This document shows, in pieces, positions 22,653-52,317 of a stretch of 64,000 nucleotides of DNA (positions are counted from its first letter, which is position 1; every line of letters starts with the position of its first letter). Location of the stretch: the IMG/VR virus record IMGVR_UViG_3300033463_000004, positions 198,695 to 262,694 of that record; one strand, written 5' to 3'. Position numbers and translations under genes: made by a program. The notes beneath the pieces were generated by a model. The model was given only the letters and a program-made list of their open reading frames with translations, had not been told where the DNA came from and made no database searches. The DNA is from a virus (taxonomy: Duplodnaviria > Caudoviricetes).

Positions 22653-23432
22653 TCATGAGTATTGTTTCAGGCGGTTATCCCATGTCTGTGCGGTCTCTAA
22701 TGCATTGGTACGCATCGTTTCCACTGCATCCCAGATATCTCCGGAAAATGCTTCGTTGCCGATGATTTGTCTCGCAAGACTCTCATCTGATGAAGCGATC
22801 GCTTCATCACACGATTTGACTACAGCGATCGCAGCAGCCTTAGCATCATATGCCAACTGCTTGAGTTCACGCAGTTTCTCACCATATTGATTGTTCATCA
22901 CATCGACTGATGTGCCGTCCTCAAGTACGCGTTTCAGGCTAAGACACTCCCAGTCAAATTTGCCATACTCTTCATCGCGGCGGGGTCCATATCCTCTGGT
23001 ACGGCCACAATTCAGTGCTGCTTTCACAGCATTGAGAGCAATGTCGGTATAACATACAAATGTTATCCGACATTTGCAACCTGCCGGAATGACTTCAGCT
23101 CTCATTGTATCATGCGATAGGTCTTCCGACTCAAATGTTACGACATCCGGTGCTTTACCGGATTCGATCGGAATCCGTCTCTCTTCAATGAAGACTTCGT
23201 CGCTGATATCGCGATAGATGCTCGTGCAGCCACGGCACTGCTTCTTTACATAGCCGATCCAGCCATAGGACTGGAGCACGGGTTGGTTGTTATTGTCTCT
23301 CATAAACTGTCTTGTGTAATCGTCAGTGGTAGGGGTTTCATTGAGTAAGTGTGCATAATCAGCCGGTGCACTCGAAGCAACCAGATCCGTTATAAACGTA
23401 ATGCAGGCTGTCAGAATATATTTTTCTTTCAT
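22653..23432 (-). CDS. divergent Cas7/RAMP-like protein with C-terminal helical extension
   Basis: motif-by-motif similarity to 51408-52133 product (ITFITDL, SYGWIGYVK, EVIPAG, G-loop GYGPRRDEEYGKF). Confidence 0.7.
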   Translation of the reverse strand: MKEKYILTACITFITDLVASSAPADYAHLLNETPTTDDYTRQFMRDNNNQPVLQSYGWIGYVKKQCRGCTSIYRDISDEVFIEERRIPIESGKAPDVVTFESEDLSHDTMRAEVIPAGCKCRITFVCYTDIALNAVKAALNCGRTRGYGPRRDEEYGKFDWECLSLKRVLEDGTSVDVMNNQYGEKLRELKQLAYDAKAAAIAVVKSCDEAIASSDESLARQIIGNEAFSGDIWDAVETMRTNALETAQTWDNRLKQYS

Positions 23433-23541
23433 GGGTTTCCTCACTTTCTCCCGCTGTGCGGGTTGCGACGGCGTTAAGCTTTTACGCCGTCTATTATTTA
23501 TTTTCTTTGAATATTAGATAATACTATCTTCTATTCATAAT

Positions 23542-23560
23542 AATAATATATATATGAAAA
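23542..23560 (-). promoter_or_regulatory. putative phage promoter motif
   Basis: TTTTCATATATATATTATT on - strand. Confidence 0.6.
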
Positions 23561-40925: not shown

Positions 40926-41513
40926 TGTAATTGTACGGCGAGGTTCTGTGAAGCCGAGCTCTGTACCGTAATGTGAATGTAAAGTACAATGTTGTTTAGT
41001 CCTGTATTGGTGAAGTCTGGTCACGTGATATGTCGTCATCTGTTGTGTTGTAAAGGTAGAGTATAGTGACGTTTGGTCAAGTGGCGTAAAGGTGAAGTTA
41101 TGCCTAGTAACGTATTGTAACGGTGGTGTACCGTGTCGTCGCGTTGAGTAATTGTGGATGTTTTGTATAGTATTTGTAGAGTATTGTGTAGTGATGTTCT
41201 GTATAGGCACAGTGTCGTGTCGTCTTGTTCAGTTGTGTGTACTGTGCTGTTAGGTTCAGTACTGTCTCGTTTTGGTACGGTGCGGTACGGTGGTGTCAAG
41301 TTCTGTAGATGTATCGTTTCGTATCGTGATGTGAAGCCTAGTAAAGGCGAAGCGTGGTTCAGAAAGGTAAAGTGACGTTTTATCAAGTAGAGTGTAAGGT
41401 AATGCGGGATATCGTTATGTGACGTATCGTAAAGTATTGGCAACGTGTAGTTGCGTTTTGTTTGGTGGAGTCACGTATATGCACAGTTTGGTTTTGTCCG
41501 ATATAGTATAGCA
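40926..41513 (+). repeat. NGY-NN pentamer array A (candidate guide-RNA array)
   Basis: 5-nt periodic GT/GC, e.g. AGT GT CGT GT CGT CT TGT TC AGT TG TGT; ends at terminator. Confidence 0.85.
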
Positions 41514-41515
41514 TT

Positions 41516-41553
41516 AAAAAAAAAGAGGGAGGTTCGCCTCCCTCTTTTTTTTT
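41516..41553 (+). terminator. intrinsic terminator after array A
   Basis: AAGAGGGAGG-TTCG-CCTCCCTCTT followed by T run. Confidence 0.9.
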
Positions 41554-41557
41554 GTAT

Positions 41558-41576
41558 TTTTCATATATATATCATT
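41558..41576 (+). promoter_or_regulatory. putative phage promoter motif
   Basis: TTTTCATATATATATCATT. Confidence 0.65.
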
Positions 41577-44200: not shown

Positions 44201-44286
44201 GGATATGTGTAGCTGAACAGGTGAAAGCACCGACTCAAGGGACGCCCTTGAGTCGGTGGTGCGGGTTCGACTCCCGTCACATATCT
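44201..44286 (+). ncRNA. tRNA-like RNA with 12-bp anticodon-arm hairpin
   Basis: acceptor, D and T arms intact; CCGACTCAAGGG-ACG-CCCTTGAGTCGG. Confidence 0.75.
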
Positions 44287-46938: not shown

Positions 46939-48030
46939 ATGAAAAGAGAATTATTATTAACATTAAGCAAGGCACCGGTCATTGAGCATAATGTGCTCGG
47001 TTTTCTGGTTGACCAAGAGACAATCGGATCCATAGATTTGAACAAATTATGGGACGATGATTCGGCCGCTACTGTATACTGTTATGATTTTGGATGTCAT
47101 GAAGTTGAGAACGTCTCAACCGGTGAAACATCATATATCATAGACAAAATCATTATCTGTCCACCAAATGAAATCGGATATAAATTTGTAACCAGATCTA
47201 ATCTCCAAGAATTGTTTGCATGTGATTATGATGGTGATGTCATAATTTGTACAAACACTGAAGAGGTTTGGTCAGGTAATCCGGATTTAAAACCGTTCTC
47301 GGTTAATTACAATCCGGAGGGCAAATACTATATTCGGAATCCAAAACTCCGGAATATGAAATCCTATATTTTCAATCGGGAACAATTTTCTCAACTGTTT
47401 TCATCATTAATCGCTTCAAATGAAGAAGCATTTGAGAGATTCGAAGATGCTGCCAATGGTACTGACGATGGAGTAGTCGGAGACTTCAAAATCTGGAGAG
47501 ATGAAGACGCCGAAGTCTCTATTCTTCATGTACCATCCGGTGTCATCATTGGATGGTACAAAATGTATCATTATGGCCGTGATAATTGGTGTAATCGTGC
47601 GGATTTCACCGAAGCAGATTTACGTGATTTTCTTATGCTGCTGCGGCATCAATTGATGGAAGATCCGGATGAACCTGCTGAAGATTACCATCCGAATGTG
47701 AAAGTTACAGAAACTGATCAATCTAAATATGACAGTTCAGTTTCGGCCACATCACTCATGGATGAATATATCAAAGCAATGAAATTCAGTATAAATTCTA
47801 TATATGGTCTTCATTGCGATGTGTGTCATAAACCTATCAATTTGGACGAATCACATGATATCCAAACCAAAACAAATATCCACATAACCATTTGTCAGGA
47901 TTGCTTAAACAAAATCAATCCTATCAAAGAAGACGATTCTGACATAAAAGACGTTTGTCAGGAGAACGATGACGGATCGTTCACATATATAGGAGAAGGA
48001 GACGATGATGAAGACGATTACAAAGAATAA
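46939..48030 (+). CDS. hypothetical protein (C-terminal CxxC..CxxC)
   Basis: ATG after GAGGAGG. Confidence 0.7.
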   Translation: MKRELLLTLSKAPVIEHNVLGFLVDQETIGSIDLNKLWDDDSAATVYCYDFGCHEVENVSTGETSYIIDKIIICPPNEIGYKFVTRSNLQELFACDYDGDVIICTNTEEVWSGNPDLKPFSVNYNPEGKYYIRNPKLRNMKSYIFNREQFSQLFSSLIASNEEAFERFEDAANGTDDGVVGDFKIWRDEDAEVSILHVPSGVIIGWYKMYHYGRDNWCNRADFTEADLRDFLMLLRHQLMEDPDEPAEDYHPNVKVTETDQSKYDSSVSATSLMDEYIKAMKFSINSIYGLHCDVCHKPINLDESHDIQTKTNIHITICQDCLNKINPIKEDDSDIKDVCQENDDGSFTYIGEGDDDEDDYKE

Positions 48031-48631
48031 GTTACAAAACTTGATATTGGGCATACTGTTAACAGTATGCCTGATTATTACTGTCATATTATTGGCATAT
48101 GGTTCATCAAACAAAAATATGAACGAATTATCATCTATCGAAGAAACGACAACCTGTACAACAATGACAACAACCACGTCGGCAACAACGACCACAACAA
48201 CGACAATTACGACGGTGACAACTGTAATCACAACAACGACGGAAGCAACGACAACTACAACCGCGACACACGATATCAAGGATAGGTTTGTTGATTACGG
48301 TTTCTTCCGCGCAACCTACTATCACGGAGAAGGAGCTAATCCGTGTCCCGGGGGCTCCGGTCGTATGCTTCTCGATTGTTCACCGAAACTTGATGAAATA
48401 AAAGGTTCGGTTGCATGTCGTCGAGTGCAAGAAGATTATGGGTATAATATTAATGGCAGAACCCGTGTATGGCTTGAGTTTACTAAATATCCAACCATGA
48501 CCGGCTGGTATTTCGTGGATGATGCATGTCGCGACTATGATGTTGTTGATGTGTATTTTATCGAGTATTCGGATTGTCCATGGGAGCATGACGGAAATGC
48601 AGAAGTGCATTTGTGGCTCGAACCGTCTTAA
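48005..48631 (+). CDS. membrane-anchored Thr-rich protein with 3D-like (cell-wall hydrolase) domain
   Basis: TM helix, poly-Thr linker, RATYY..GSVA..VDDAC..VVDVYF. Confidence 0.6.
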   Translation: MMKTITKNKLQNLILGILLTVCLIITVILLAYGSSNKNMNELSSIEETTTCTTMTTTTSATTTTTTTITTVTTVITTTTEATTTTTATHDIKDRFVDYGFFRATYYHGEGANPCPGGSGRMLLDCSPKLDEIKGSVACRRVQEDYGYNINGRTRVWLEFTKYPTMTGWYFVDDACRDYDVVDVYFIEYSDCPWEHDGNAEVHLWLEPS

Positions 48632-48642
48632 GATTAAAATAC

Positions 48643-48918
48643 TGAAGTCATCGATAGCGATACAGGGAGTAGTTCTGCGGAGTAAAGTGACGGCAAGGTG
48701 TGGTGTGGCATAATAACGTATGTCAATGTATTGTCAAGGTGCCGGAAAGCAAGGCTCCGTGGTGTTTTGTGACGCTTTGGTTGAGCATTAGTACAGTGCA
48801 ACAATGTGTTGTATCGGTCGAGTCAAGTCTTGTTCCGTGCAGTACTGTGGTGTTTAGTAAAGTAATGGTAAGGCACAGTATGGCGCTTCGTGACTCAGCA
48901 ACGTAACGGTTGTGTGTA
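48643..48918 (+). repeat. NGY-NN pentamer array B
   Basis: e.g. TGT AT CGG TCG AGT CA AGT CT TGT TC CGT GC AGT AC TGT GG TGT TT AGT AA AGT. Confidence 0.75.
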
Positions 48919-48943: not shown

Positions 48944-49408
48944 ATGAATAAGAAAACTTCGGTAGATGAAGTCTTATACTTTATCCACCATATTTTCGAC
49001 GGAAAAACTTGTGAAGAACGTAATGTCATTCACAAGTTTTTCGGATGTGGATATTGTTATTATTTCGCATCAATGTTGAAAGCAGCTTTCCTTCGCGGTC
49101 ACATTGCGTGGGCTGCACCGTATTCCCACTGTGTGTGGGTTGATGTTGATGGGACTCCGTACGATATCGAGGGAATATACGACGGCGAATATTCTTATTT
49201 GATTCCAATAGAATTTGCCGAAACTGTATGTGACAAATTCAAACATATATTTCGGCATAATTCTGAATATTCAGAATCATATATCGTATACGTTACACAA
49301 GAAGATATCCAACATGTTTGCCGCGCGTACTGCGCGGCGAATAATATCAAGTATCAAGACCAGTATGGGGATTGGTATAAATGGAAAGGAGATGTGACGA
49401 AATGGTGA
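48944..49408 (+). CDS. hypothetical protein, possible Cys-His-Asp papain-like fold
   Basis: GYCYYFA...SHCVW...YDIEG. Confidence 0.65.
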   Translation: MNKKTSVDEVLYFIHHIFDGKTCEERNVIHKFFGCGYCYYFASMLKAAFLRGHIAWAAPYSHCVWVDVDGTPYDIEGIYDGEYSYLIPIEFAETVCDKFKHIFRHNSEYSESYIVYVTQEDIQHVCRAYCAANNIKYQDQYGDWYKWKGDVTKW

Positions 49409-49908
49409 CTTTAGTAGTCGACGGGCACATCATAAGTGACGTCGAAAAATTCATTCGTCTGGCATTGACAGCCAGCGATCCAATGACCGATGATGCTATG
49501 CAATCCGTCGCATTGAATGCATTGAAAGAAATGCGGGCATTGGTCACTGTTCCTGATCGGAGCACACACAATGACATCATGTGGGACTCACCAGATGATA
49601 TTCACCGAGATATCTTCACGAATGTACTCGGAAACGCGGGTGTGTCGCCAGCTTTAACGAAGCTGGATAAAGTTGGTATCACAACCGAAGCACAGCTGAA
49701 GAATTTCATTATTGCCGCACATCGACCGGAAGGTTTCGGTGCAAAGACCATCGGTTTAATCGCCGAATATGTGTACATTCGTGGTCTGACATCAAGTCCT
49801 GAAAACATCGTGTCCAGGTTTTACAAACCTGGGTGGCATGAATATAATCTTGCCATGAATACGATCGCCGAAACCAAATGGCGGCGATGGAACACGATCA
49901 TTGACTAA
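49402..49908 (+). CDS. hypothetical protein
   Basis: ATG after AAGGAG. Confidence 0.65.
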   Translation: MVTLVVDGHIISDVEKFIRLALTASDPMTDDAMQSVALNALKEMRALVTVPDRSTHNDIMWDSPDDIHRDIFTNVLGNAGVSPALTKLDKVGITTEAQLKNFIIAAHRPEGFGAKTIGLIAEYVYIRGLTSSPENIVSRFYKPGWHEYNLAMNTIAETKWRRWNTIID

Positions 49909-49911
49909 ATA

Positions 49912-51278
49912 CTGTGTACAGGCAAGGTACTATACAGCAGAATTCCGTGCAGCTATGGCAAAATAGTGTATTGTAAGGTGAGGTGTGGTAATGCTTAGCT
50001 GTGGTATGGCAGTGCAAAGTTCTGTTCGGTATTGGTGGGGTTTAGTATCGTGGCGTCGTGTTTGGCAAAGCAAAGGTATTGTACGGTCATGGTAGGGTTG
50101 TGTTCGGTTCAGTTGTGTGTGGTACCGTTGTGTCATGGTGCTGTGCTGTTCGGTACGGTATCGTACTGTAGCGTGCCGTAGAGGTGTGGTAGAGCAATGT
50201 TCGGTAGCATGATGTTCTGTGATGGTCTGGTATTGTGAAGTATTGTGGTATAATGTGCAGTGATGGTTTAGTGTCGTTATGTAGAGTATCATTTAGTCAT
50301 GTAATGGTGACGTCAGGTATGGTATAGTTATGTCCTGTGGAGGCATGGTATGGTTATGTCCTGTGGAGGCATGGTATGGTTATGTCCTGTGGAGGTGTAG
50401 TATAGTCAATGTTACGCACCGTGGCGTACAGTCTGGTGTGGTCCAGTAATTGTCCCGTGCAGTAGGGTGAAGTTTGGTGAAGGTACTGTATTGTATAATA
50501 GGGTGCGGAATAGTGATGTACAGGTATTGTATCGTAAATGAATAGCAAAGCGGAGTGGTGTATTACTCAGTATCGCAAAGGTAAGGTGTCGTAAGATAAG
50601 GTGCTGTCTCGCAAAGGTGTGGTCACGTCTTGTGATATTCAGTAAAGCAATGCAAATGTAGAGCAAAGCTGATCGCCGTGTGATAGGGTAACGTAACGGT
50701 TCAGTGTTTGTCAAGTGACGCGGCATGACGTTGAGTGAAGTGTCGTAATTGTAAAGTGGCGCAAGATCAGGTACCGTTGTATCGTGTAAAGTATAGGTAT
50801 AATGAAGCGACGTCTTGTTTGGTTCCGTCAGGTAATTGTGAAGCCGCGTGACGTTTTGTGTTGTAAAGGTTCTGTCGTGTTTCGATTGTATTGTGAATGT
50901 ATGGTAACGTTCGATATTGTGCATTCATGCGTTGTCAAGGTAAAGCGGCGTACAGTAAGGTATAGCTTCGTATCGTTTCGTAATGGTGAGGCGAAGTTTG
51001 GTTTCGTCAAGTAAAGGTAAGGTACAGCTTCGTGTCGTTTCGTAATGGTGAGGCGAGGTTTGGTTTAGTCAAGTAAGTGTGAAGCCTGGTGTTGTGGAGT
51101 CGGGTCATGTTATGTCTTGTACTGTACAGTGAATGTATTGTTCCGCAATTGTGACGTAGCGTTTCGTGTCGTGACGTGAAGCTGAGTAAAGGTAATGTAC
51201 GATTTTGTCAAGTTTAGTCAAGTAAGTGCAAGGTTTAGAGCCGTGACGTGCGGTCCTGTAATGTCAAGGTATAGCTAT
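49912..51278 (+). repeat. NGY-NN pentamer array C (~1.37 kb), upstream of Cas7-like gene
   Basis: e.g. GGT GC TGT GC TGT TC GGT AC GGT AT CGT AC TGT AG CGT GC CGT; periodic 6-nt phase slips before GGY. Confidence 0.9.
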
Positions 51279-51303
51279 GGATTATATATGAAAATTTTTA
51301 TGA

Positions 51304-51322
51304 TTTTCATATATATATCATT
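51304..51322 (+). promoter_or_regulatory. putative phage promoter motif of Cas7-like gene
   Basis: TTTTCATATATATATCATT. Confidence 0.65.
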
Positions 51323-51407
51323 ATGGTGATCCGAAGGACAATTATACCTTCGGAAGTAAAGTTTATTTTAATTTTGTAAGGGCTTAGTCCCAGAAAGGAA
51401 GACCATT

Positions 51408-52133
51408 ATGGCAACTGAAACAACCGCAAAGAAAACATCCGCAAAAAAAGCTGCTTCTGCAGCACCCCGCATCGCATATTATTTATCTGCAAAGATTACA
51501 TTCATTTCACCGTTGTTGGCAACAAATGCCAATGATCCTCAGATTTATTCTGAGTATCTGGCTAGTCTCGCCAATGACGAGACCCGTGCTGCCGAAATCG
51601 AACGTCTCGGTCTTGCCGAGGTGGATGAGAAAGGCATGACTGTCTTTCTCCGTAATCCGGATAATCCGATGCAACCCCAGTTGAAGGGGTATACTTGGCT
51701 GGGCTTTTTGAAGTCCAGATCAAGAGCTCTGGCAAAGGTTGACGGCACCCAGATCAAGGGTATGTCGGCCTATATTAAGGAAATCGACGACAGAATCTTT
51801 GTGTCGCCAATTTTTATCAATCTGGATTTACCGGAAGGAGAAGCAATTGACACCCTTCAGAGACCGCTGAGAGCAGCTACCATGCAGGGTGATCGCGTTG
51901 CATTGGCAAAATCCGAAACTGTGCCGGAAGGTACGACTTGTGAAGTCACATTCCGTACGGAGACTCTGGACGGAATGAAACTCGTGATTGAGTGTCTGGA
52001 TTACGGAAAGATCCATGGCACTGGTCAATGGCGAAACGCCGGATATGGGCGTTTCACCTGGGAAAAAATTGACCAATGGAAAGAATACATCGACAAAGTC
52101 AAACTCGAGGAAGACGACTTCCCGATGAGATAA
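51408..52133 (+). CDS. stand-alone Cas7/Csm3-like RAMP protein
   Basis: KITFISPLL beta1; LKGYTWLGFLKS helix; thumb QRPLRA; SETVPEGT; G-rich loop LDYGKIHGTGQWRNAGYGRF. Confidence 0.8.
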   Translation: MATETTAKKTSAKKAASAAPRIAYYLSAKITFISPLLATNANDPQIYSEYLASLANDETRAAEIERLGLAEVDEKGMTVFLRNPDNPMQPQLKGYTWLGFLKSRSRALAKVDGTQIKGMSAYIKEIDDRIFVSPIFINLDLPEGEAIDTLQRPLRAATMQGDRVALAKSETVPEGTTCEVTFRTETLDGMKLVIECLDYGKIHGTGQWRNAGYGRFTWEKIDQWKEYIDKVKLEEDDFPMR

Positions 52134-52142
52134 CTTTGTCTG

Positions 52143-52188
52143 AATTTAACGGCGTCATGTGTAAAAAGCATGACGCCGTTAAATTTTT
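52143..52188 (+). terminator. 17-bp stem hairpin after Cas7-like gene
   Basis: AATTTAACGGCGTCATG-N9-CATGACGCCGTTAAATT. Confidence 0.65.
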
Positions 52189-52191
52189 CTA

Positions 52192-52317
52192 TGATGCGGT
52201 GGTACGGTAGCGTATGATTCTGCACTGCGCAGTAATGTAAATGCGAAGTGACGTATGGTCTAGTCTGGTGTTGTAAATGCATTGTTTTGAGGCGTTATGT
52301 TGTGTCTCGTAAAGTAT
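52192..52317 (+). repeat. NGY-NN pentamer array D
   Basis: TGC GA AGT GA CGT AT GGT CT AGT CT GGT GT TGT AA. Confidence 0.7.

What the first reader, a model, noticed from the sequence alone, without database searches (positions are those of the whole stretch)
49912..52317. Candidate non-CRISPR RNA-guided system: solo Cas7-like RAMP plus NGY-NN pentamer arrays
Seen: a 241-aa protein with RAMP hallmarks is flanked on both sides by non-coding DNA in which GT/GC recurs every 5 nt with variable intervening bases. There is no repeat-spacer CRISPR array and no other cas gene in the window. Known: Cas7 family proteins polymerise on guide RNA with a fixed nucleotide step. Inference: each subunit grips one NGY and displays the variable NN, so the dinucleotides jointly spell a non-contiguous target code (for example, skipping every third target base) against rival phages, host genes or self promoters. 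This resembles my recollection of recently reported phage VIPR-type systems with GGY/NN repeats, which should be verified. Here the first base is relaxed to N, there are four arrays and there is a second paralog.
Basis: partly seen in the sequence, partly recalled or inferred. Interest (0 to 1): 0.96.

Follow-up and report, generated by a model that had tools for sequence, protein, structure and literature searches.

The report
Phage VIPR system, punctuated guide arrays
A cattle-gut jumbo phage carries a VIPR system (a CRISPR-related, RNA-guided DNA-binding device first described in 2026): one Cas7-like protein plus about 68 short guide blocks written in five-base steps, so it is a large new example of a known kind whose targets are still unknown.

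Summary
Observation confirmed. ORF 51408-52133 folds as a RAMP (best Foldseek hits Cas7/Csm3, E 4e-10); the 262.7-kb AR9-like phage shows no Cas1, Cas5 or repeat-spacer array. Four + strand arrays (453 pentamers) have 5-nt GY periodicity far above shuffles. Among strains of this phage group, inner NN positions change rarely (4) while the base before GY changes freely (19; p=2e-6), and NN composition fits codon positions 1-2: the code is NGY/NN, most likely with a skipped wobble base. In five close relatives arrays occur only where the gene occurs. The G1-reading residues of SUSP1 Vipr are replaced (D177 to Q), matching the relaxed first base. A degenerate, lineage-specific paralog lies at 22653-23444. 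This is VIPR (bioRxiv 2026.04.26.720920), whose text already lists YNNNG repeats and staggered arrays; this scan has also reported the same kind in other rumen jumbo phages. No target found: self and five related phages show no excess, seven guides gave chance-level hits. New member of a known kind.

The parts
51408..52133 (+). vipr gene: 241-aa stand-alone RAMP (RRM core, thumb about residues 148-172, G-loop G204-T-G-Q-W-R-N210)
   Evidence: AlphaFold pLDDT 84.7; Foldseek top hits type VII Cas7 and Csm3, E 4e-10; best PHROG is the SUSP1 Vipr family phrog_4652, E 0.036; 2549 homologues
49921..51277 (+). Main guide array: 264 NGY-NN pentamers in 40 blocks separated by +1 hexamers
   Evidence: whole-block replacement in other strains
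52201..52317 (+). Downstream mini-array: 23 pentamers in 3 blocks, ending 18 nt before tRNA-Leu (52336)
48656..48917 (+). Second upstream array: 51 pentamers in 8 blocks, two genes before the main array
40932..41514 (+). Distant array: 115 pentamers in 17 blocks directly after the dCMP-deaminase gene; relative G004 has a 400-unit array at the same place
41515..41555 (.). Strong terminator-like hairpin closing the distant array
   Evidence: fold z -6.0 for 41480-41560
51269..51329 (+). AT-rich hairpin ending the main array; contains an AR9-like early-promoter motif (51307-51324) in front of vipr, also present before the gene in relatives L001 and L007
   Evidence: AR9 early consensus AAATATATATTAT-(6N)-G in PMC5312081; function inferred
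52142..52189 (+). Stem-loop between vipr stop and the mini-array; a stem at this place is seen in L001, L003 and L007
   Evidence: fold z -5.2
22653..23444 (-). Degenerate vipr paralog (259-263 aa): thumb shortened, G-loop Q-W replaced by P-R, extra C-terminal helical tail, no adjacent array, own early-promoter-like motif near 23557
   Evidence: no other relative at E<=0.001 in the 5.8-billion set

Best explanation
This is a VIPR system of the relaxed-repeat (YNNNG), staggered-array kind in an AR9-like rumen jumbo phage. Shown here: a stand-alone RAMP gene; four NGY-NN arrays punctuated by a +1 hexamer; co-occurrence of arrays and gene; selection on NN but not on the base before GY; whole-block turnover. 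Inferred from the published SUSP1 mechanism: the arrays are transcribed at the 3' ends of operons, Vipr (probably made early) polymerises one subunit per pentamer gripping GY, the hexamer marks the boundary between guides (cut site or break in filament register), the last unit acts as a minimal tail, and units 1 to n-1 display 10-20 nt of NN that pair with double-stranded DNA skipping every third base (codon wobble), silencing protein-coding genes of the host or of unrelated co-resident mobile elements. No nuclease partner is present, so repression rather than cutting is expected.
For: Fold. G-loop W178/R179 of SUSP1 (G2 and Y3 contacts) align to W208/R209, while the G1 readers D177 and H17 align to invariant Q207 and near-invariant T39, matching loss of G1. 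Jumbo-clade homologous blocks (44 pairs): inner NN 4 substitutions vs 19 at the base before GY, p=1.7e-6; first unit constrained, last unit looser; independent runs show 12 of 16 in-array differences outside NN. NN best fits codon positions 1-2, about 70% sense and 25% antisense, other registers under about 10%. Arrays in G000, G004, G006 (gene present), none in G005, G007, G008 (gene not found; G007 92% complete and syntenic). 149 of 161 homologue loci give array calls of this punctuated type (loose threshold). Three blocks are replaced by one new in-register block in other strains.
Against: No target was identified, so the 1-nt skip is supported only indirectly. Guides are short (typically 12-14 coding bases), near the limit for unique recognition in a bacterial genome. 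Direct sequence similarity to SUSP1 Vipr is weak (hhalign 13%, G-loop only) and the alignment behind the H17/R138 mapping is at 21% identity. In the small-phage relatives NN is not clearly better conserved than the third base (p 0.27 and 0.03). No conserved vap gene and no structured tail were found.
Confidence: 0.8

Rival explanations
1. All three variable bases (GY-NNN) pair with the target, giving a contiguous code that would compensate for the short blocks.
For: The base before GY is as variable in composition as NN; concatenated NNN reads like peptides; in small-phage relatives the third base is about as conserved as NN.
Against: In this phage group the third base changes as freely as the C/T position (19 vs 4 for both NN positions together); its weak coupling to NN is not frame-specific and is explained by TpA avoidance; stop triplets are not depleted (5 seen, 6.8 expected); no NNN matches above control.
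Confidence: 0.05
2. The complex acts on RNA (binding or Csm3-like cleavage of mRNA) rather than on DNA.
For: Closest solved folds are RNA-targeting type VII Cas7 and Csm3; SUSP1 Vipr can hold an RNA target in vitro.
Against: About 70% of guides read like the sense strand; a guide with sense sequence pairs with the template DNA strand, not with mRNA. Vipr structures are not in the searched library, so Cas7 hits are expected by default.
Confidence: 0.04
3. Guides are not single blocks: one long RNA carries several blocks that jointly recognise a longer target across the hexamer, or the arrays serve mainly as a decoy that soaks up Vipr of competing elements.
For: Blocks of 2-3 units exist and cannot be specific alone; a two-block 62-nt unit is duplicated; decoy vrRNAs are published; homologous Vipr proteins are common in gut phages.
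Against: Two-block searches at offsets -6 to +6 gave nothing above control, though in a database with no known target; blocks are gained, lost and replaced singly; selection on NN argues for sequence-specific pairing; the cognate gene is adjacent.
Confidence: 0.08
4. The tract is a degenerate minisatellite or a hidden minus-strand ORF, unrelated to the RAMP gene.
For: Open frames of 120 and 170 codons lie on the minus strand and one was called as a gene in JGI records.
Against: 5-nt not 3-nt periodicity; substitutions sort by pentamer position; strict co-occurrence with the gene; same architecture beside distant homologues.
Confidence: 0.02

Closest known systems
VIPR systems with alternative YNNNG repeats and 'staggered' vrRNA arrays (bioRxiv 10.64898/2026.04.26.720920, methods and legend of fig. 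S18)
   Same: Stand-alone phage RAMP flanked by pentamer arrays; YNNNG is the same register as NGY-NN; tail-less back-to-back guides offset by one base; no cas genes or CRISPR array; codon-phase signature.
   Different: The figure itself could not be seen, so identity with the published staggered type (and type number I-VII) is inferred from text; staggered arrays were not tested experimentally there. Here: 68 blocks in four arrays, one 10 kb away, no conserved vap, and a degenerate second paralog.
Type II VIPR of Escherichia phage SUSP1 (YP_009199429.1; bioRxiv 2026.04.26.720920, .720927, 2026.10.15.759431)
   Same: G-loop G-x-G-x-W-R motif; same PHROG as best (weak) hit; 5-nt unit with variable NN.
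   Different: SUSP1 has GGY, 9-16 units per guide, a pseudoknot tail, four guides and vap1; here NGY, 6-9 units typical, no tail, D177 replaced by Q; 21% identity.
Non-canonical VIPR arrays found by Evo-PIN periodicity (bioRxiv 10.64898/2026.10.21.760802)
   Same: Degenerate fixed part such as WGT/NN or TGH/NN beside Vipr-like folds.
   Different: Hexamer punctuation is not mentioned in the passages read.
Type VII Cas7 / type III Csm3
   Same: RAMP fold (Foldseek E 4e-10, TM about 0.5).
   Different: No Cas5, Cas6, Cas10, Cas14 or repeat-spacer array context; guide period 5 with gapped pairing rather than 6 with contiguous pairing.

Membership tests
VIPR | Minimal RAMP protein with RRM core, thumb and G-loop | tested here: met
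VIPR | Homology to a characterised Vipr | tested here: inconclusive
   Best of 38,880 PHROGs is the SUSP1 Vipr family but E 0.036; hhalign 13%, G-loop only; the paper's seed X1U2U4 and its 670-protein set were not available
VIPR | No CRISPR array or other cas genes | tested here: met
   (Cas1 and Cas5 searched genome-wide; record 98% complete)
VIPR | Virus-encoded, gene flanked by long non-coding pentamer tracts | tested here: met
VIPR | Fixed/variable pentamer: GGY/NN or a listed alternative (NNNGG, YNNNG, NNNNG) | tested here: met
   YNNNG form; G or T before GY only at block starts
VIPR | NN dinucleotides carry the specificity | tested here: met
   Indirect: purifying selection on NN, not on the third base or Y
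VIPR | 1-nt-skip recognition of dsDNA targets | tested here: inconclusive
   Codon position 1-2 fit but no target above chance
VIPR | Accessory vap gene (typical, not universal) | tested here: inconclusive
   Gene before the array (49381-49908) has no homologue in seven related sequences; single-sequence fold poor
VIPR | RNP formation and transcriptional repression | not testable with these tools
   needs pull-down and reporter assay
Type II VIPR (SUSP1-like) | GGY repeats with structured 3' tail per guide | tested here: not met
   SUSP1 parsed as unpunctuated GGY runs with the same parser
CRISPR-Cas class 1 | Repeat-spacer array and cas operon | tested here: not met

The most novel reading that the evidence does not exclude
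The hexamer alone delimits guides without any tail or processing enzyme (it breaks the filament register), so one early-expressed protein runs a roughly 60-plex silencing programme of 12-20-nt gapped guides against host genes (for example defence genes) rather than rival phages, with the RNA-binding-defective paralog acting as a cap or regulator. Whole-block replacement in strains would then give a handle on the open question of how VIPR guides are acquired.
Probability: 0.15. Interest if true: 0.75.

Novelty: new member of a known kind. Interest (0 to 1): 0.42.

Why it matters
The kind is published, so the surprise is limited. The value is in what this locus adds to the least-studied VIPR architecture: staggered arrays were described but not tested, and here strain data show which bases matter (NN yes, third base no), that guides turn over as whole in-register blocks, and that the system is an accessory cassette gained or lost in a tRNA region of AR9-like jumbo phages. 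A tail-less guide of 31-46 nt with only GY fixed would be the most compact multiplexable VIPR guide format, and the locus is a ready test case for how such guides are delimited and acquired.

Tried and rejected
Self-targeting with 0-3 nt skips and with contiguous NNN: no excess over unit-shuffled guides; the one 17/18 NNN match (genome 21531) is AT-rich and not supported by others. 1343 guides from all homologue loci against 2.4 Mb of phage/prophage DNA, single and two-block models: no excess. Window and relatives' guides against five related jumbo phages plus self (1.4 Mb): 14 vs 13 expected, none strong. Exact pattern scans of seven window guides in IMG/VR, GTDB and JGI collections: zero hits or chance-level hits that do not extend and are not supported by a second guide; a 308-kb virus record hit by one guide had no further matches; a Selenomonadales hit has the skip off the wobble position. 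Third base as a relic of the target wobble base: rejected. Host not determined; the endolysin-like gene and Vipr relatives point only loosely to Clostridia. Complex prediction of Vipr with the paralog gave no answer. Pfam, NCBIfam, Rfam and PDB sequence searches name neither the protein nor the arrays. One metatranscriptome has two low-depth contigs on the array and the 5' end of the gene: too weak to show transcription. Figures of the VIPR paper are not held, so type assignment was not possible.

Full report
Setting. The window is the last 64 kb of a 262,694-bp virus record, 98% complete. Its NAD-dependent ligase is closest to Staphylococcus jumbo phages (Machias group), AR9 and phiR1-37; runs that hold the locus are bovine gut metagenomes. 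The finding lies in a tRNA cluster.

Observation. All four arrays are real and lie on the + strand: lag-5 GY pairs exceed every one of 500 dinucleotide shuffles in each array and not in the gene. They are the only such tracts in the genome. A phase parse with equal penalties for 4- and 6-nt steps shows that the register slips almost always by +1: 453 pentamers form 68 blocks, 50 of them of 6-9 units. Inside blocks only G (92%) and Y (99%) are fixed; at the junction the hexamer is GY-A-A-W-K, so each block starts with GGY or TGY and ends with GY-AA.

Protein. With a 73-sequence alignment AlphaFold gives pLDDT 84.7 and Foldseek returns type VII Cas7 and Csm3 (E 4e-10). The family is large (2549 clusters at 90%; 2120 at 50%) and mostly viral. 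Sequence similarity to SUSP1 Vipr is confined to the G-loop, but that family is the best PHROG hit. In the SUSP1 structure H17 and D177 read G1, W178 stacks on G2 and R179 holds Y3. Here W208 and R209 are kept, D177 aligns to invariant Q207 and H17 to T39, which fits the free first base; the H17 mapping rests on a 21%-identity alignment. No Cas1 or Cas5 was found and the family profile finds only this gene and the paralog.

Linkage. Homologues at 57-70% identity in other rumen jumbo phages carry the same punctuated arrays beside the gene, as do most 40-49% homologues in small gut phages and prophages, where blocks are shorter and the unit is G(C/T/A)-NNN. Of five relatives found through the recombinase gene, two have the gene and arrays and three have neither; G007 is syntenic on both sides and lacks the cassette. 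The neighbouring genes are not conserved, so no vap could be named.

Which bases code. Homologous blocks among strains, paired by a position-blind threshold, show in inner units 18 changes at Y, 19 at the base before G, and 4 at the two NN positions together (p=1.7e-6); the first unit is constrained and the last is looser. Independent sequencing runs agree (12 of 16 differences outside NN). The NN dinucleotides fit codon positions 1-2 better than the other registers, about 70% of guides as sense and 25% as antisense; this is what a skip on the wobble base predicts, though the mixture had no non-coding class. The third base carries no frame-specific codon signal. In other strains three blocks at 50616-50707 are replaced by one new eight-unit block in register, and a 26-nt block varies in copy number: blocks are the units of turnover.

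Expression (inferred). Arrays follow stop codons directly and end at hairpins or a tRNA. A motif close to the AR9 early promoter (PMC5312081) precedes vipr and the paralog, so the protein is probably made early. Transcription of the arrays is not shown.

Targets. None found; see Tried and rejected. The negative is informative only for self and five related jumbo phages. One guide (50940) decodes to a motif matching the start of a common intein family, but the pattern is AT-rich and has over 100 hits, so it is a lead only.

Paralog. 22653-23444 keeps the RRM core but has lost most of the thumb and the G-loop tryptophan, has no array nearby and no other relative in 5.8 billion clusters. It is either a decaying duplicate or a regulatory subunit; the data do not decide.

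Comparison. It works like VIPR and passes every defining feature that could be tested except those of type II specifically. The discovery paper already lists YNNNG repeats and staggered arrays offset by one base; a later preprint adds degenerate motifs. Earlier notes of this scan report the same kind in other rumen jumbo phages; I did not rely on them. Verdict: new member of a known kind, with useful new evidence on the code of the untested staggered type. Interest 0.42.

Noticed in passing
window 50940-50984: This guide decodes (xNN, sense) to [KN]GT[KN][IM][FL][IM][FL], which matches the N-terminal block of a widespread phage intein family (C-x-x-KGTKILMF); several virus records hit there. 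AT-rich pattern, over 100 hits, so possibly chance.
   Followed up: partly
window 22653-23444 (-): Lineage-specific degenerate Vipr paralog with its own early-promoter-like motif and a short inverted repeat upstream (about 23470-23492) resembling the stem after vipr.
   Followed up: partly
G004:C1:78649-80699 (L401-L402): A related phage has a 2-kb, 400-unit, 54-block array after the same dCMP-deaminase gene, 11 kb from its vipr gene.
   Followed up: partly
L023-L182 (small gut phages and prophages): Their blocks are only 5-6 units (8-10 coding NN bases) and NN is not clearly more conserved than the third base; how such guides reach specificity is unexplained.
   Followed up: partly
proteins P0158, P0159: 432-458-aa proteins with two matches to the Vipr profile: possible tandem Vipr fusions.
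   Followed up: no
window 44203-44285: Rfam calls a twelfth tRNA that ARAGORN missed.
   Followed up: no
window 48005-48631: Secreted-looking Thr-rich-linker protein conserved in relatives with and without VIPR, directly before one array.
   Followed up: no
L004:14397-16916: A strain of a related jumbo phage carries a LAGLIDADG-containing insertion in a helicase gene that other strains lack.
   Followed up: no
L010 and L013: Contigs join the vipr locus to bacterial or plasmid-like genes; probably misassemblies, possible host clue.
   Followed up: no
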